A stretch of DNA of 36,127 nucleotides from IMG/VR virus record IMGVR_UViG_2627854066_000004, positions 1 to 36,127 of that record; one strand, 5' to 3'. Below are positions 4,188 through 36,127 of the stretch, one piece after another. A program made the translations under genes and the position numbers. Numbering within the stretch: the stretch's first letter is position 1; each line of letters begins with the position of its first letter. This DNA comes from a virus. Lineage: Duplodnaviria > Heunggongvirae > Uroviricota > Caudoviricetes. The notes beneath the pieces are model-generated. The model made no database searches, was not told where the DNA came from, and saw only the letters and a list, made by a program, of their open reading frames with translations.

Positions 4188-4307
4188 GTAATCATCATGC
4201 ACACACAAAAAAACCGCTTGCCATGCCGCAATCAGTCAGGTTACATTTCTGCTGCACCTCATAAAACGGGTGCCGGGATTCTCAACCTGCTGACAAACGA
4301 AGCGCAC

Positions 4308-4328
4308 AACCGCGCCAGCGGTTTTTTT
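4308..4328 (+). terminator. rho-independent terminator
   Basis: AACCGC-GCCA-GCGGTT stem-loop followed by TTTTTTT. Confidence 0.55.
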
Positions 4329-4340
4329 GTGCGTACTGTA

Positions 4341-4448
4341 TTGCCACGTCTTTTTCGCACACGAATTATGGTGGGGCGTACGGGGCCGACTTCGGTCGGG
4401 CCGGTTTCTTCGTTTGCCGGTGTTGAGAACCCCGTACGTCTCGCCACC
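4341..4448 (+). promoter_or_regulatory. promoter-like element plus structured leader or small RNA upstream of the 4511 ORF
   Basis: TTGCCA-N17-AATTAT at 4341-4369, then a long hairpin at 4371-4447: CGTACGGGG (4377-4385) pairs with CCCCGTACG (4430-4438) and encloses a UUCG-capped stem CCGAC-TTCG-GTCGG (4386-4399). Confidence 0.3.
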
Positions 4449-4510
4449 CCGAGATTCTCAACTCTGGTTGGTGAGTATCCAAAAACTCACAAACGAAGAG
4501 GCCAAACACC

Positions 4511-8117: not shown

Positions 8118-9077
8118 ATGAAAATTTGTATCGACGACGGCTCCACCAACATCAAGCTGGCATGGACTGAGAACGGCGAACGCCGCAACGCCATCAGCCC
8201 GAACAGCTTCAAGTCGGAATGGTCTGCGCCGTTCGGTGGCTCGCAGCCTGCGAACTACATGCTTGATGGCGTGCGCTATGGTTTTGATCCGGTCAGCGAT
8301 CGCTTTGTCCAGACGACCGACACGCAATACCAGTACAGCGATGTGAATGTCATTGCCATTCATCACGCGCTGGTCAAATCAGGCATCACGCCACAGGAGG
8401 TGGATGTGGTTGTCACCCTGCCACTGAGCGAGTATTTCGACACAAACGCACAGCCGGACATGGCCAACATCAACCGCAAAAAAGCGAACGTTATGCGCCC
8501 GGTGGAGTACCAGAACGGCGAAGCATTCACTATCCGTAACGTGCGGGTTATGCCTGAATCCATTCCGGCTGGCTTTAAGGCACTGGCTGACATGAGTCCG
8601 TTTGAATCCCTGCTGATTGTAGATTTGGGCGGAACCACGCTGGATGTGGCAAAGGTTCAGGGGCAACTGGCAGGTATCAGCCAGGTGTTTTGCGATCCAC
8701 ACGTAGGCGTTTCTCTGATGGCCGATGCCGTACTGTCGGTGATGGCCACTAACGGTATGCGCACCAGTCACCACATCGCCAATACCATTATCGAACATCG
8801 CCATAATGAAGCCTGGCTGCGCCAGCACATCCACAATGACGCGCATTACGCCAGCCTGATGGAGGTTATTCGTGAAAAGGAAGAAACACTGAAACAACGC
8901 GTGATCCGCGCGCTGGCGGGTTTTTCGGGTTACGGGCGGGTGATGGTTGTCGGTGGAGGGGCGGAGATTGTGGCACCCGCTATCCGCGAAGCCTGCGGAG
9001 TTAATGCGACTTTCATCGCGGACGGGGTGCCACAGTTTGCTCTGGTTAATGGGCTGTACGCAATGGACAAGGAGTAA
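8118..9077 (+). CDS. actin-like segregation ATPase, StbA/ParM family
   Basis: 319 aa; N-terminus MKICIDDGSTNIKLAW and the LIVDLGGTTLDVA phosphate-binding motif match the StbA/ParM family of plasmid R100/R1. Confidence 0.8.
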   Translation: MKICIDDGSTNIKLAWTENGERRNAISPNSFKSEWSAPFGGSQPANYMLDGVRYGFDPVSDRFVQTTDTQYQYSDVNVIAIHHALVKSGITPQEVDVVVTLPLSEYFDTNAQPDMANINRKKANVMRPVEYQNGEAFTIRNVRVMPESIPAGFKALADMSPFESLLIVDLGGTTLDVAKVQGQLAGISQVFCDPHVGVSLMADAVLSVMATNGMRTSHHIANTIIEHRHNEAWLRQHIHNDAHYASLMEVIREKEETLKQRVIRALAGFSGYGRVMVVGGGAEIVAPAIREACGVNATFIADGVPQFALVNGLYAMDKE

Positions 9078-9081
9078 ACCA

Positions 9082-9393
9082 ATGACGACACCAACCAGAC
9101 GGATAAGTTTCTATCTGAAGCCCGCCGCCGTCAAGAACGAAGGCGAAGCATGCGCCTGGCTGGACAGCCTTACACCAGAAGCCCGCAAAAGCGGCCAACG
9201 CGTGGCTTTTCTGGCCGGGCTGGCACTTCTGAAAATGAATCCGGCAGAGGCTTACCGACTGGCTGCATGGGCTGACGATGAGGCGTTATCGGTGACACAA
9301 ACCAGGACAGAACGCCCCGCGTCACAGCCAGTATCAACCGCACAGATAACCAGTCAGATGGCCAGAAATATCCGGGCGTTATTTCCCGAATAA
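9082..9393 (+). CDS. StbB/ParR-like small DNA-binding partner (putative ribbon-helix-helix)
   Basis: 104 aa directly downstream of the StbA-like gene, AAGGAG RBS overlapping its 3' end; N-terminal beta-strand-like RRISFYLKP and C-terminal NIRALFPE resemble StbB as I recall it. Confidence 0.5.
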   Translation: MTTPTRRISFYLKPAAVKNEGEACAWLDSLTPEARKSGQRVAFLAGLALLKMNPAEAYRLAAWADDEALSVTQTRTERPASQPVSTAQITSQMARNIRALFPE

Positions 9394-33962: not shown

Positions 33963-34223
33963 ATGTTCCGTTGTCCGCTTTGTGGCGCATCTGCCCGTAT
34001 CCGCACCAGTCGTCCGGAAAATGATTCAAACACCGTGCGGCAAAAGTATTACCAGTGTAACAATCTGGAATGCGGCGTATGCTTCTCAACACTGGAAGCT
34101 TTCCATAAATTCACATCGAAACATGCCTCCGGCGTTCACTCTTCAGAAGGTATCCCGTGGCATGAGCTGCCAGCTTCACACAGGGGAAACAATCAGATGA
34201 GCTTGCCTTTATCTCAGAATTAA
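33963..34223 (+). CDS. ogr: late-gene transcription activator, Ogr/Delta zinc-finger family
   Basis: N-terminus MFRCPLCGASARIRTSR...YYQCNNLECGVCF with four Cys in the Ogr arrangement. Confidence 0.8.
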   Translation: MFRCPLCGASARIRTSRPENDSNTVRQKYYQCNNLECGVCFSTLEAFHKFTSKHASGVHSSEGIPWHELPASHRGNNQMSLPLSQN

Positions 34224-34413
34224 CAGGCAGAATTGCCGGAGTAACAAAAAAGCGATAGATTACGCGCGGGTGCCTTTCGGCTGATGGTCGGAGGGAATAC
34301 CCGAAGGCCGGATGTGGAAAGGCCCCGGAAAACATTTCTGTTTAACCGAGGCCCTAACCGCATTACCTTGACAAGTGAAAGGTTAGCGCCTCTCCGGAAA
34401 AGGAGCAAGTGCT

Positions 34414-34554
34414 ATGTCGCAAAAATCGCTTACGGCCATCACGTTCTGCGTGACGGCAATCCTCATCATCTGGATGCTGCATGGTTCGCTGTGCGAAATA
34501 CGGATGAGCTTCTGGGGAGCGGAGTTTGCGGCGTTCTTACAGTGTAAGCAGTAA
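34414..34554 (+). CDS. Hok/Gef-family type I toxin-like small membrane protein
   Basis: 46 aa (MSQKSLTAITFCVTAILIIWMLHGSLCEIRMSFWGAEFAAFLQCKQ): N-terminal TM helix, then the SLCEIR and AAF motifs seen in Hok/Gef; AAAGGAG RBS. A longer out-of-frame ORF (34284-34547) overlaps it in a mok-like manner. Confidence 0.55.
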   Translation: MSQKSLTAITFCVTAILIIWMLHGSLCEIRMSFWGAEFAAFLQCKQ

Positions 34555-34689
34555 GGAAACCGCGACGGGGGAGCAATCCCCCGTCAATCGGTTGCCAGGG
34601 TATGGTCGAAGTGGCACCCAAATTTAAATTGAGGCCCACCAGTAAGAGTGGTGGGTTTAACGCTTATTTAAATTTGAAAGGAACTCTTT

Positions 34690-34986
34690 ATGAGTGAAAT
34701 GGTATTTTGTCGCGGATGCGGCAAGGAAATACATAAAGATGCCACATCCTGCCCCAATTGTGGAGCACCTCAAAGAACAGCAAGTTCAAAAAGCAGAATG
34801 ACAGCCGCACTACTGGCTTTCTTTTTAGGTGGTCTTGGTGCACACAAATTTTATTTAGGTAAAGTGGGGCAAGGATTCCTTTACCTTATTTTTTGCTGGA
34901 CATTCATTCCGGCAATCGTGGCATTTATTGAGTTTTTTATCTATCTATGCACCTCTGATGAAGACTTTGCCCGCAAATATGGCTAA
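34690..34986 (+). CDS. zinc-ribbon plus TM2-domain membrane protein
   Basis: 98 aa; CRGCG...CPNCG zinc ribbon followed by two hydrophobic helices (AALLAFFLGGLGAHKFYLG...). Confidence 0.6.
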   Translation: MSEMVFCRGCGKEIHKDATSCPNCGAPQRTASSKSRMTAALLAFFLGGLGAHKFYLGKVGQGFLYLIFCWTFIPAIVAFIEFFIYLCTSDEDFARKYG

Positions 34987-35012
34987 TGCCTAGTGGGCGA
35001 ATCAGAATGACA

Positions 35013-35047
35013 AACCCGCAGCGTAAAAACTGCGGGTTTTCTTTTTG
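35013..35047 (+). terminator. rho-independent terminator
   Basis: ACCCGCAG-CGTAAAAA-CTGCGGGT followed by TTTTCTTTTTG. Confidence 0.65.
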
Positions 35048-35096
35048 TCACCCTCACAAATGAGGGTAACACCACTCATAAGTAATAGGCATAACA

Positions 35097-35131
35097 GATC
35101 GATGCAATAAATCCGATCGATAAAAACGATC
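35097..35131. promoter_or_regulatory. cluster of three GATC (Dam) sites within GATCGAT repeats upstream of the com-like gene
   Basis: GATC at 35097, 35115 and 35128, each in the context CGATCGAT, 50-80 bp upstream of the com-like start. Confidence 0.45.
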
Positions 35132-35178
35132 GATTTGTTATCATATCGGCAGCAGTAACCACACAAGAGGTGCCGCAA

Positions 35179-35376
35179 ATGACGCAAAATGTACGATGCA
35201 AAAATTGCAACAAACTACTTGCCCGCGCCTCATTTCACTACATTGAAATAAAATGTCCGCGCTGCAAAACACTTAACCAGATAACGAGAGCCATCGAGCA
35301 CCCCACACACATGAGGAGTTATGACCGTGGGGATCGCAATCCAGCACCAACCAGCACATACACCGGAACACACTAA
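35179..35376 (+). CDS. com: Com-like zinc-finger protein (phage Mu Com family translational regulator)
   Basis: 65 aa; RCKNCNKLL...IEIKCPRCK matches the Mu Com zinc finger nearly residue for residue as recalled; AGAGG RBS; the 3' end overlaps the downstream methyltransferase start. Confidence 0.7.
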   Translation: MTQNVRCKNCNKLLARASFHYIEIKCPRCKTLNQITRAIEHPTHMRSYDRGDRNPAPTSTYTGTH

Positions 35377-36127
35377 GGTTTATCAGACTGACAATGCCAC
35401 GCTCTGTCGTGGGAATGCGCTGGAAATATTGCCGCTGATTGAGCCAGAAAGCATTGATGCCTTAATCACTGACCCGCCTTACAGTTCGGGTGCGACACAC
35501 AAGGCCGGACGCACCAACCAAGGCAGCCATGCAAAATATCTGAACGGCGAGAACCTTCACCGCTTTGATGGGTTCGCGGGTGAAAACATGGACGCCCGTT
35601 CGTGGGCTTACTGGACACAATTATGGATGGCACAGGCACACCGCGCAGTCAGGCCGGGCGGTTATGCCCTGGTATTTACTGACTGGCGACAACTACCAGC
35701 TTTAACCGATGCGTTTCAGGCCAGCGGCTTTACATGGCGCGGCATCATTGCGTGGAACAAGGGGAGGGGGTCACGAACACCCCATACGGGGTATTTCAGG
35801 CATCAGTGCGAATACATCGTCTGGGGCAGCAAAGGCCATTTAGATAAATCGCCTTCGGGGCCGTTCGACGGCTGCATGACGTACCCGGTTATCCCGTCAA
35901 AGAAAATGCACCCGACCGGAAAACCAGAAGAACTAATGGCGGAACTGGTCAGGACTGTGAATAGTGGCGGAACAGTCCTTGATCCTTTTATGGGGTCAGG
36001 GACAACGGGTGTGGCTGCACTGAAAGCAGGGCGAAAATTTATTGGTATAGAAACCAGTGATCATTATTTTGAGGTAGCAGCGCAGCGGCTTCGGGGGACT
36101 ATTACCACAACCATTTCGGCTACATAA
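35321..36127 (+). CDS. DNA methyltransferase, beta-class amino-MTase (N6-adenine or N4-cytosine)
   Basis: 268 aa; catalytic motif ITDPPYS near the N-terminus and the AdoMet-binding motif DPFMGSGTTGVAA near the C-terminus (motif IV before motif I). Stop codon is the last three bases of the window. Confidence 0.85.
   Translation: MTVGIAIQHQPAHTPEHTKVYQTDNATLCRGNALEILPLIEPESIDALITDPPYSSGATHKAGRTNQGSHAKYLNGENLHRFDGFAGENMDARSWAYWTQLWMAQAHRAVRPGGYALVFTDWRQLPALTDAFQASGFTWRGIIAWNKGRGSRTPHTGYFRHQCEYIVWGSKGHLDKSPSGPFDGCMTYPVIPSKKMHPTGKPEELMAELVRTVNSGGTVLDPFMGSGTTGVAALKAGRKFIGIETSDHYFEVAAQRLRGTITTTISAT

What the first reader, a model, noticed from the sequence alone, without database searches (positions are those of the whole stretch)
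34230..34590. Hok/Gef-like type I toxin ORF with an overlapping mok-like frame immediately after ogr
A 46-codon ORF with a good RBS encodes an N-terminal transmembrane helix followed by SLCEIR and AAF motifs characteristic of Hok-family toxins. A longer ORF in another frame (34284-34547) overlaps it as mok overlaps hok, and a strong stem-loop (34564-34585, GACGGGGGA-GCAA-TCCCCCGTC) follows the stop. It is too short to appear in the six-frame track. If functional, it is a post-segregational killing or abortive-infection-type module at the prophage edge, next to the partition-like genes elsewhere in the element.
Basis: partly seen in the sequence, partly recalled or inferred. Interest (0 to 1): 0.6.

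Follow-up and report, generated by a model that had tools for sequence, protein, structure and literature searches.

The report
Hok/Sok toxin cassette in P2-like prophage
The small gene after ogr is a real Hok-family membrane toxin with the usual hok/sok RNA control elements, a common and already annotated cassette in E. coli prophages, so the finding is correct but ordinary.

Summary
ORF 34414-34554 (46 aa) passes the Pfam Hok/Gef threshold and has every residue conserved in the Hok family. It lies in a discrete ~390-bp cassette (about 34233-34619). The cassette holds homologues of the R1 hok/sok RNA elements: a promoter, the 5' tac and 3' fbi boxes that pair in the full-length mRNA, the ucb/anti-SD box, GAGGC with its dcb partner, a protective 3' hairpin (34564-34585), and a predicted ~60-nt antisense Sok RNA shaped like annotated K-12 SokC.

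The window is a P88-like (P2-type) E. coli prophage. The identical gene is annotated "Hok/Gef family protein" in RefSeq, and about a third of complete E. coli genomes carry the cassette, in at least five different contexts.

It is not conserved. The canonical mok ATG is absent, and 20 of 45 cassette variants have no upstream ORF reaching the hok ribosome-binding site.

The most variable segments lie inside the predicted Sok RNA. Toxicity, transcripts and biological role are untested; the likeliest role is element maintenance alongside the prophage's ParMR partition genes. Novelty: already known. Interest: low.

The parts
34233..34238 (+). Predicted hok promoter -35 box (TTGCCG)
   Evidence: Read from the sequence. 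It is 17 nt from the -10 box. TTGC is conserved at the left edge of cassette homology in 12 contexts. Too weak for the consensus scan. Inferred, no transcript data.
34256..34261 (+). Predicted hok promoter -10 box (TAGATT)
   Evidence: The TAnAnT pattern is invariant in A1 and aligns with the -10 region of the hokC and R1-type loci. G34268 lies 7 nt downstream.
34268..34619 (+). Predicted full-length hok mRNA (about 352 nt)
   Evidence: The 5' end is the start of the Rfam RF01794 match. The 3' end is where homology stops in all contexts. MFE -157.6 kcal/mol, z -6.06, with the 5' and 3' ends paired.
34268..34282 (+). tac (translational activator) element, GGGUGCCUUUCGGCU
   Evidence: Pairs with fbi in the full-length fold and with ucb in the truncated fold and the RNAalifold consensus. 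Nearly invariant.
34317..34326 (+). ucb / anti-SD box, GAAAGGCCCC
   Evidence: Pairs with GAGG in the full-length fold and with tac in the truncated fold. Invariant in 37 cassettes. AGCCCCG is shared with hokC and R1-type loci.
34348..34352 (+). GAGGC, homologue of the R1 mok Shine-Dalgarno sequence
   Evidence: CGAGGC is invariant and aligned with hokC and R1-type loci. In the cassette no start codon follows it at the canonical distance.
34355..34379 (+). Variable Sok-target region (apex of the target hairpin)
   Evidence: A peak of variability. There are 16 distinct versions among 37 cassettes, median 6 edits apart. It is complementary to the predicted Sok 5' tail.
34388..34392 (+). dcb (GCCUC), which pairs with GAGGC in the processed mRNA
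   Evidence: Truncated fold and RNAalifold consensus. Corresponds to the 'mok SD/dcb stem' of R1 (PMC9841398).
34400..34405 (+). hok Shine-Dalgarno sequence, AAGGAG
   Evidence: Lies 8 nt before the ATG. Paired with the upstream CUCC (34392-34395) in the full-length fold. Conserved.
34414..34554 (+). hok toxin gene, 46 aa
   Evidence: Annotated as WP_000078916.1 'Hok/Gef family protein'. dN/dS below 1.
34564..34585 (+). 3' hairpin, the likely protective end of the processed hok mRNA
   Evidence: 9-bp stem with a GCAA loop. 99.4% paired, with 4 pairs carrying compensatory changes. Counterpart of the R1 terminal stem G345-C358 (PMC9841398).
34588..34601 (+). 3'-UTR partner of a long-range helix with the Sok-target region (34365-34378)
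   Evidence: Present in the full-length MFE. 5 of its 12 pairs show changes on both sides across homologues (helix 8).
34604..34619 (+). fbi (fold-back inhibition) element, ending in GGCACCC
   Evidence: Pairs with tac. The core helix is 98.4% paired across 36 sequences, with only one-sided changes. It marks the exact right end of the cassette.
34403..34408 (-). Predicted Sok promoter -35 box (TTGCTC), overlapping the hok SD
   Evidence: GCAAG is invariant. Same place and 17-nt spacing as TTGCGC-17-TATCCT in the R1-type locus L216. Below the threshold of the consensus scan.
34380..34385 (-). Predicted Sok promoter -10 box (TAACCT)
   Evidence: Its complement AGGTTA is invariant in 37 cassettes. 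It places a TAG stop in the hok frame.
34310..34374 (-). Predicted Sok antisense RNA (about 60-65 nt)
   Evidence: Folds as an 11-nt 5' tail plus a long hairpin, followed by UUUCC, z -4.5. Same architecture and same hairpin base (GGCCUCGG/CCGGGGCC) as annotated K-12 SokC. Ends are inferred, no transcript data.
34284..34547 (+).
   Evidence: Candidate internal starts are GTG 34314 (AAGG 6 nt upstream) and TTG 34368 (no SD).

Best explanation
This is an intact hok/sok-type type I toxin-antitoxin cassette. It is a self-contained ~390-bp moron (an accessory gene unit with its own promoter) inserted just after ogr in a P88-like (P2-type) E. coli prophage.

Shown here:
- A 46-aa Hok-family membrane peptide is encoded.
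- The sequence homologues of the R1 regulatory boxes are present.
- The predicted folds switch as in R1. In the full-length mRNA, tac pairs with fbi, GAGG pairs with the anti-SD box, and the Sok-target region is locked to the 3' UTR.
- After removal of about 35 nt from the 3' end, down to the conserved hairpin, tac pairs with ucb and a GAGGC/GCCUC-closed target hairpin forms.

Inferred by homology with R1:
- The stable full-length mRNA is inert.
- It is slowly trimmed at the 3' end into a form that can be translated and can bind Sok.
- The short-lived antisense Sok RNA, made from a promoter overlapping the hok ribosome-binding site, pairs with the variable target region and triggers decay.
- When Sok supply stops, through loss of the element or transcription shut-off, Hok is made, inserts in the inner membrane and kills the cell.

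Most likely role (about 45%): addiction or maintenance of the element, working alongside its ParM/ParR partition genes. Phage exclusion and help with lysis on induction are the alternatives.

One departure from R1: no conserved mok leader ORF. Coupling to a leader peptide is doubtful in this subfamily.
For: Toxin identity:
- Pfam HOK_GEF scores above its cut-off and PHROG 251 gives E 1e-22.
- All seven Hok residues reported as more than 80% conserved (M1, C16, T18, L30, C31, E32, E41; bioRxiv 10.1101/2025.08.07.668861) are present, offset by 4 (M1, C12, T14, L26, C27, E28, E37).
- The hok frame has dN/dS of 0.09-0.57.

RNA elements:
- RF01794 matches over its full length at E 1.7e-8, on the strand sense to hok. 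The same model hits an R1-type locus on the sense strand at 87 bits and ends at the hok AUG.
- The leader aligns with K-12 hokC/sokC and the R1-type locus at the -10 box, GGGTGC, AGCCCCG, CGAGGC and the SD.
- The full-length fold has tac-fbi pairing, z -6.1.
- The truncated fold and the RNAalifold consensus both give the tac-ucb stem and the GAGGC/GCCUC hairpin.
- Pair counts: 93.4% paired against 37-43% in slid controls, with 20 pairs changed on both sides. Four of these are in the 3' hairpin and five in the target/3'-UTR helix.
- Predicted Sok RNAs from 7 variants fold like annotated SokC.

Cassette and context:
- Boundaries are discrete and the same in P2-like prophages, Stx phages, lambdoid prophages, a chromosomal site and plasmids.
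- RefSeq annotates the identical gene as Hok/Gef.
- ParM and ParR are present.
- A whole P88-like phage has been recorded as a circular 34.5-kb plasmid.
Against: - There are no transcript, toxicity or stability data for this cassette.
- The Rfam score (46.2) is below the gathering score (59).
- The NCBIfam HokA and Hok-family models score far below their cut-offs (34 against 89; 21.6 against 73).
- Neither promoter reaches the threshold of the consensus scan.
- The tac-fbi helix is conserved but shows no changes on both sides, so covariation does not prove it.
- The tested structure was derived from the window sequence itself, which inflates the percentage paired.
- mok, which is essential for Hok translation in R1 (PMC9841398), is not conserved here. 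The step 'Sok blocks translation' therefore cannot simply be copied from R1.
- An integrated prophage is rarely lost, so classical post-segregational killing may matter only in an episomal state.
Confidence: 0.85

Rival explanations
1. Same cassette, different job: an anti-phage exclusion or abortive-infection module. An infecting phage shuts off host transcription, Sok decays, and Hok kills the cell before the phage completes its cycle, which protects lysogens.
For: R1 hok/sok on a high-copy plasmid reduced T4 plating by 42% and plaque size by about 85%, as summarised in PMC8621323. P2-type phages commonly carry defence cargo near ogr and the attachment site (own knowledge). hok genes are four-fold enriched in prophages (bioRxiv 10.1101/2025.08.07.668861).
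Against: The same preprint found no enrichment of hok next to known defence systems. The T4 effect was modest and needed a high copy number. Nothing in the window tests this role.
Confidence: 0.25
2. Same cassette, different job: a lysis helper. When the prophage is induced, Sok disappears, Hok damages the inner membrane, and this advances or increases phage release, as reported for hokW-sokW of Stx prophage Sp5.
For: In Sp5, mitomycin C removed sokW RNA, HokW accumulated in the membrane in a RecA-dependent way, and deleting the locus halved released phage (PMC8621323). The cassette sits beside late-gene control (ogr) and occurs in many inducible phages (P88, Stx phages).
Against: hokW is a different Hok subfamily (51 aa, with an in-frame mokW). 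The cassette studied here is a separate, unannotated locus in the same Stx phages. The prophage already has a holin, an endolysin and Rz/Rz1-type genes. The reported effect was only two-fold.
Confidence: 0.2
3. A decayed, non-functional hok relic, like several K-12 chromosomal hok loci, kept only by hitch-hiking with the prophage.
For: No conserved mok ORF. Both promoters are weak by consensus. Rfam and NCBIfam scores are below threshold. At least one relative (E. albertii pEA5) is clearly broken.
Against: All regulatory boxes are intact and near-invariant. The structure is kept by compensatory changes. The hok frame is under purifying selection, including in the variants without mok. No IS element or stop codon interrupts it. 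42 of 45 diverse Hok homologues tested in the preprint were toxic.
Confidence: 0.08

Closest known systems
hok/sok (parB) of plasmid R1, the paradigm type I toxin-antitoxin system
   Same: A small Hok membrane toxin. The mRNA has tac, ucb, GAGG, dcb, a 3' hairpin and fbi in the same order. A cis-antisense RNA is made from a promoter overlapping the hok SD. The predicted fold switches between the full-length and 3'-trimmed forms (PMC9841398).
   Different: The toxin is 46 aa, not 52, and scores only 21.6 bits on the NCBIfam Hok-family model, against 126 for R1 Hok. The leader scores 46 bits on RF01794, against 87. There is no ATG where mok starts and no conserved leader ORF. The cassette is in a prophage, not a plasmid.
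E. coli K-12 chromosomal hokA and hokC/mokC/sokC loci
   Same: HokA is the best NCBIfam match. The hokC leader and the annotated SokC share the GGGTGC 5' end, AGCCCCG, CGAGGC and the base of the Sok hairpin with the window cassette.
   Different: The HokA model score (34) is far below its cut-off (89). hokC has an in-frame mokC starting 57 nt upstream. In the cassette the hok frame is closed by the invariant TAG at 34384-34386.
hokW/mokW/sokW of Stx phage 933W / Sp5
   Same: A prophage-borne hok/sok locus, shown experimentally to be a type I TA system (PMC8621323). RefSeq phage records and PHROG 251 label the window-type protein 'MokW-like host killing'.
   Different: It is a different locus and subfamily. 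In 933W, hokW (51 aa) lies at 58460-58615 with mokW and sokW annotated. The window-type cassette (80% DNA identity) sits unannotated between lom and L0129 of the same phage.
Identical or near-identical cassettes in Xuanwuvirus (P88-like) phages and E. coli genomes
   Same: 100% identical over 501 bp in 13 listed genomes. Matches occur in 1750 of 5426 complete E. coli genomes, and at 94-97% identity in phages P88, PhiR44_2, P884B11, 500465-2 and Chuche, always just after ogr.
   Different: Nothing of substance differs. Only the Hok CDS is annotated there, not the RNA elements. P88 lacks the TM2/Com/methylase cargo that follows the cassette in the window.

Membership tests
Hok/Gef toxin family (Pfam PF01848) | Profile match at or above the curated gathering score | tested here: met
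   29.9 bits against a cut-off of 22, E 4.1e-7, covering residues 7-44 and profile positions 5-42 of 42. PHROG 251 scores 80.6 bits.
Hok/Gef toxin family (Pfam PF01848) | About 50-aa peptide with an N-terminal transmembrane helix and the conserved residues M1, C16, T18, L30, C31, E32, E41 (logo numbering of bioRxiv 10.1101/2025.08.07.668861) | tested here: met
   46 aa with a hydrophobic stretch at residues 5-22. M1, C12, T14, L26, C27, E28 and E37 are all present, offset by 4. C44 corresponds to logo position 48.
Hok/Gef toxin family (Pfam PF01848) | NCBIfam subfamily or equivalog models (Hok family NF007279; HokA NF007290) | tested here: not met
   21.6 bits against 73, and 34 bits against 89. 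It is therefore a separate subfamily within Hok/Gef, not HokA or R1-type Hok. RefSeq accordingly names it only 'Hok/Gef family protein'.
Hok/Gef toxin family (Pfam PF01848) | Toxicity (membrane damage) on expression | not testable with these tools
   42 of 45 diverse Hok homologues were toxic in the preprint. Whether this exact peptide was among them could not be established.
hok/sok-type type I TA locus (R1 paradigm) | hok mRNA leader homologous to the family (Rfam RF01794, which models the sense-strand leader) | tested here: inconclusive
   Full-length match to positions 1-157, E 1.7e-8, but 46.2 bits against a gathering score of 59. Relatives score 42-55 bits and the R1-type locus 87 bits. 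Anchor motifs align with hokC and R1-type loci.
hok/sok-type type I TA locus (R1 paradigm) | tac-fbi pairing of the 5' and 3' ends in the full-length mRNA | tested here: met
   A 15-bp end-to-end helix in the MFE structure. It is 98% and 88% paired across 36 cassettes, but with only one-sided changes, so it is conserved rather than covarying.
hok/sok-type type I TA locus (R1 paradigm) | Switch to the tac-ucb stem and SD/dcb stem after 3' trimming | tested here: met
   Seen in silico only: the fold of 34268-34588 and the RNAalifold consensus. The centroid also shows a metastable hairpin between tac and its downstream neighbour.
hok/sok-type type I TA locus (R1 paradigm) | Stable hairpin just after the stop codon that protects the trimmed mRNA | tested here: met
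   34564-34585 is 99.4% paired, and 4 of its 9 pairs have compensatory changes.
hok/sok-type type I TA locus (R1 paradigm) | Cis-encoded antisense Sok RNA (5' tail plus hairpin) with its own promoter | tested here: inconclusive
   The invariant TTGCTC-17-TAACCT lies at the position of the R1-type TTGCGC-17-TATCCT. Predicted RNAs fold like annotated SokC. The promoter scores only 6 of 12 against the consensus, and no transcript data exist.
hok/sok-type type I TA locus (R1 paradigm) | mok leader ORF starting in the Sok-target region and read through the hok translation start | tested here: not met
   There is no start codon at the position of the mok ATG in R1-type and hokC loci. The hok frame is closed by TAG 34384-34386. 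20 of 45 variants have no ATG/GTG/TTG ORF reaching the hok SD. The window itself keeps an open -1 frame with possible starts GTG 34314 and TTG 34368, so for this copy alone the point is not settled.
hok/sok-type type I TA locus (R1 paradigm) | Killing after loss of the antitoxin gene (post-segregational killing) | not testable with these tools
   Needs genetics; see next steps.

The most novel reading that the evidence does not exclude
This widespread 46-aa Hok cassette subfamily may work without a mok leader peptide. Sok binds 30-60 nt upstream of a hok ribosome-binding site that is itself masked by a local CUCC/GGAG hairpin. Repression would then rest on duplex-triggered decay, on blocking a ribosome standby site, or on a non-canonical or three-codon leader. 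That would be a variant of the R1 mechanism. In addition, the Sok tail and loop diversify (16 versions of a 21-nt target among 37 cassettes) while a matching 3'-UTR segment co-varies with the target. This could keep up to nine copies per genome from cross-talking.
Probability: 0.35. Interest if true: 0.35.

Novelty: already known. Interest (0 to 1): 0.15.

Why it matters
As a discovery it matters little. The gene is already annotated as Hok/Gef in more than a thousand complete E. coli genomes and in phage P88. [quoted passage not shown]

Three points have some practical value:
- The RNA parts (Sok, tac/fbi, the 3' hairpin) are not annotated in any of those records and are mapped here.
- The labels 'MokW-like host killing' (on the Hok peptide) and 'sok' (Rfam RF01794, which models the sense-strand hok leader) are misleading.
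- This subfamily lacks the mok reading frame that is essential in R1. It would therefore be a convenient natural case for asking how Sok-type antisense RNAs can control Hok without translational coupling.

The prophage combines hok/sok with ParM/ParR, the two kinds of stability locus found on plasmid R1. This hints that P88-like phages may spend time as episomes.

Tried and rejected
2. The consensus promoter/terminator scan found no promoter. Its only terminator-like site was the 3' hairpin read on the minus strand, no more than shuffles give. Both promoters therefore rest on homology and conservation.
3. The search for related loci in viral contigs kept only loci with 100% identical protein. 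These were useful for leader variants but are biased, so dN/dS was computed on the blastn-derived set instead.
4. Rfam at gathering threshold does not report the locus; only the E-value mode does.
5. I considered an N-terminally extended Hok, as in mokC/hokC and mokW/hokW. It is rejected because an invariant TAG lies 27 nt upstream, in frame.
6. I considered the conserved ATG/GTG at 34312/34314 as a mok start. It lies in the ucb region, and its frame relative to hok flips with 1-nt indels. Only about half of the variants read through, which chance could produce over 33 codons.
7. The weak MicC and BSnc120 hits at 34929-35086 are the terminator after the TM2 gene and are dismissed as chance.
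8. Chance ORF: rejected (profile hits, purifying selection, conserved RNA structure).
Full report
**What is there**

ORF 34414-34554 (+) encodes the 46-aa protein MSQKSLTAITFCVTAILIIWMLHGSLCEIRMSFWGAEFAAFLQCKQ. An AAGGAG ribosome-binding site lies 8 nt upstream. The ORF follows ogr (33963-34223; Pfam Ogr_Delta, 52.4 bits).

**Identity of the protein**

- Pfam HOK_GEF scores 29.9 bits against a cut-off of 22, E 4e-7.
- PHROG 251 scores 80.6 bits, E 1e-22, over the full length.
- The seven residues conserved in more than 80% of 1,264 Hok peptides (M1, C16, T18, L30, C31, E32, E41; bioRxiv 10.1101/2025.08.07.668861) are all present, with an offset of four.
- NCBIfam's narrower models are not reached: HokA scores 34 against 89, and the Hok family model 21.6 against 73. 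R1 Hok scores 126 on the latter.

The peptide is therefore a distinct, HokA-like subfamily inside Hok/Gef.

**Where the window comes from**

The 501 bp around the gene are 100% identical to 13 listed E. coli chromosomes, where the CDS is annotated "Hok/Gef family protein" (WP_000078916.1). 1,750 of 5,426 complete E. coli genomes have a match, with up to nine places per genome. The window is a P88-like (Xuanwuvirus, P2-type) prophage lying between pheA/pheL and raiA. Phages P88, PhiR44_2, P884B11, 500465-2 and Chuche carry the same cassette after ogr at 94-97% identity.

**A discrete cassette**

In every comparison homology starts between about 34225 and 34256. It ends at 34619 in most contexts, and at 34608-34609 in one group of matches. 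The same unit occurs in at least five contexts:

- after ogr in P2-like prophages;
- between lom and L0129 in Stx phages, at 80% identity;
- between gpJ and the tail-fibre gene in lambdoid prophages;
- next to the type-B L31 gene on the chromosome;
- on IncI1 and IncF plasmids.

In phage 933W this copy is unannotated. It is separate from the annotated hokW/mokW/sokW locus at 58460-58734. The label "MokW-like host killing" on the 46-aa protein is therefore a misnomer.

**RNA architecture**

Rfam RF01794 ("sok") matches 34268-34427 on the plus strand over its whole length (E 1.7e-8; 46.2 bits against a gathering score of 59). On an R1-type locus (L216, whose Hok is 100% identical to R1 Hok) the same model hits the sense strand at 87.2 bits and ends at the hok AUG. 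The model therefore describes the hok mRNA leader, not Sok itself. The cassette family is a divergent branch of it, with relatives scoring 42-55 bits.

An alignment with K-12 hokC/sokC and the R1-type locus places these elements in register:

- the -10 box (TAGATT, 34256-34261);
- the GGGTGC 5' end (34268);
- AGCCCCG, the ucb/anti-SD box (34317-34326);
- CGAGGC, the homologue of the mok SD (34348-34352);
- the hok SD.

**Predicted folds**

The predicted full-length mRNA 34268-34619 folds at -157.6 kcal/mol, z -6.06. It has four main features:

- a 15-bp helix between the 5' end (tac, 34268-34282) and the 3' end (fbi, 34604-34619);
- GAGG paired to the anti-SD box;
- the hok SD paired to CUCC;
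- the Sok-target region (34365-34378) paired to a 3'-UTR segment (34588-34601).

Removing the last 31 nt, so that the RNA ends at 34588, changes the fold. [quoted passage not shown] This is also the RNAalifold consensus of 37 cassettes. It corresponds to the "tac/ucb stem and mok SD/dcb stem" described for processed R1 hok mRNA (PMC9841398). The centroid also shows a local hairpin between tac and its downstream neighbour, like the metastable structure of R1.

**Conservation of the structure**

The window's MFE structure was counted on 36 distinct cassettes.

- 93.4% of cells are standard pairs, against 37-43% when partners are slid by 1-3 columns.
- 20 pairs have changes on both sides, against 2-15 in the slid controls.
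- No shuffle out of 500 reaches the observed covariation score.
- The 3' hairpin is 99.4% paired, with four compensatory pairs (G-C to A-U, A-U to C-G or G-C).
- The target/3'-UTR helix has five compensatory pairs.
- The tac-fbi core is 98% paired but varies only G-C to G-U, so it is conserved rather than proven by covariation.

One caveat applies: the structure was derived from one of the sequences counted, which favours it over the controls.

**Sok**

On the minus strand, TTGCTC (34408-34403), a 17-nt spacer and TAACCT (34385-34380) sit where the R1-type locus has TTGCGC-17-TATCCT. Their complements are invariant in 37 cassettes. They match the consensus at only 6 of 12 positions and were not reported by the scan.

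The RNA predicted from about 34374 to 34310 has an 11-nt free 5' tail and a long hairpin (GGCCUCGG...CCGGGGCC) followed by UUUCC, with z -4.5. Predicted Sok RNAs of six other variants, and the annotated 59-nt K-12 SokC, have the same shape and the same hairpin base. The apical stem differs between variants but stays paired.

The two peaks of variability in the leader (34328-34345 and 34355-34377) both fall inside this RNA. tac, ucb, the Sok -10 box and the Hok C-terminus are nearly invariant. The 21-nt tail target has 16 versions among 37 cassettes, a median of six edits apart.

Diversification to avoid cross-talk between copies is an inference. It is in line with the report that none of the five chromosomal Sok RNAs protected against R1 hok (PMC9841398).

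**mok**

The 87-codon ORF is in the same relative frame as R1 mok, one nucleotide ahead of hok. It is nevertheless not a conserved gene.

- Its ATG lies 17 nt from the mRNA 5' end and has no SD.
- In 7 of the 11 other homologues examined, a synonymous TGC-to-TGT change in the Hok Cys codon closes the frame with TGA. Most have no start codon between the upstream stop and hok.
- In K-12 mokC/hokC, 933W mokW/hokW and the R1-type locus, the mok ATG lies 57 nt upstream of hok. In R1 proper it is 58 nt (PMC9841398).
- At the aligned position the cassette has TAACCG, TAACAT or TAACCA.
- The hok frame itself is closed by the invariant TAG inside AGGTTAG.
- Among 45 distinct variants, 20 have no ATG/GTG/TTG ORF in any frame that reaches the hok SD. 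These include phage P88, the Stx-phage copies and the lambdoid copies.
- Hok is nevertheless under purifying selection in those variants too (dN/dS 0.09-0.57).

In R1, translation of mok up to the hok SD is mandatory. This subfamily therefore either uses a non-canonical leader or controls Hok without coupling. The recent Hok survey explicitly left mok unanalysed. This is the only mildly new point, and it remains an inference from sequence.

**Function**

Mechanism by homology: the full-length mRNA is stable and inert, and is slowly trimmed at the 3' end. Sok binds the trimmed form and causes its decay. Hok is made when Sok is no longer supplied.

The role is untested. I rank maintenance or addiction first, at about 45%. 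The same prophage encodes ParM (8118-9077; 275 and 229 bits) and a ParR/StbB-like protein (9082-9393; 86 bits). These are the other stability system of plasmid R1. In addition, a whole P88-like phage exists as a circular 34,461-bp "plasmid" record.

The alternatives are phage exclusion, as with R1 hok/sok against T4, and help with lysis on induction, as with hokW-sokW in Sp5 (PMC8621323). A decayed relic is unlikely.

**Verdict**

The mok reading is not supported. The cassette is common, already annotated and covered by recent literature, so novelty is "already known" and interest is low.

Noticed in passing
window 8118-9393: ParM (8118-9077; Pfam StbA_N 275 bits and ParM C-terminal domain 229 bits) and a ParR/StbB-like protein (9082-9393; Plasmid_stab_B 86 bits) lie just after the gpA replication gene. 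Together with hok/sok, the prophage carries both kinds of stability locus known from plasmid R1.
   Followed up: partly
L217 (NZ_CP148288.1, 1-34461): A circular 34,461-bp record deposited as an E. coli plasmid is a complete P88-like phage genome (int, cox, gpA, parMR, structural genes, ogr, hok, com and methylase). This suggests an episomal state, or packaged or induced DNA in the assembly.
   Followed up: partly
window 4254-4451: Two Rfam matches score above their gathering thresholds: isrK Hfq-binding RNA (4254-4328, 62 bits) and C4 antisense RNA (4364-4451, 79 bits). They lie in the early region of the prophage.
   Followed up: no
window 34620-36127: Cargo lies downstream of the hok cassette and is absent from phage P88: a zinc-ribbon plus TM2-domain membrane protein (34690-34986), a Com-like zinc-ribbon protein (35170-35376) overlapping an N6/N4 DNA methyltransferase (35321-36127). 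The junction begins right after fbi with a 10-bp inverted repeat, AAATTTAAAT (34620-34629) and ATTTAAATTT (34666-34675). The repeat flanks a hairpin at 34635-34655 followed by TTT, which could end the hok transcript in this context.
   Followed up: partly
L015 (AF125520, phage 933W) about 1511-1872 of the locus, between lom and L0129: 933W and other Stx phages carry an unannotated copy of this cassette (80% identity) in addition to the annotated hokW/mokW/sokW locus at 58460-58734. The RefSeq and PHROG name 'MokW-like host killing' on the 46-aa Hok is a mis-transferred label.
   Followed up: partly
window 34268-34427; L216 232-403: Rfam RF01794, named 'sok antitoxin', matches the strand that is sense to hok and ends at the hok AUG, both here and in an R1-type locus. 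The model describes the hok mRNA leader, so its strand call should not be read as the Sok gene.
   Followed up: yes
L216 344-403; L219 (K-12 mokC/hokC); L015 (mokW/hokW): In these three canonical loci the mok ATG is 57 nt upstream of hok and in frame with it, so 'Mok' is an N-terminally extended Hok. In R1 proper the distance is 58 nt and the frames differ. The mok frame is thus not fixed even among classical loci.
   Followed up: partly
L014 (CP061270.1) 1-603: Two Hok genes lie in tandem about 330 bp apart next to serS, in a record labelled as a 1.2-Mb plasmid. The record is probably a chromosome fragment.
   Followed up: no
window 34312-34371: A conserved ATG (34312), with AAGG 4 nt upstream, opens a 19-codon frame that ends at TGA inside the variable Sok-target region. 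In variants with a 1-nt indel the same ATG reads through into hok. Its significance is unknown.
   Followed up: partly
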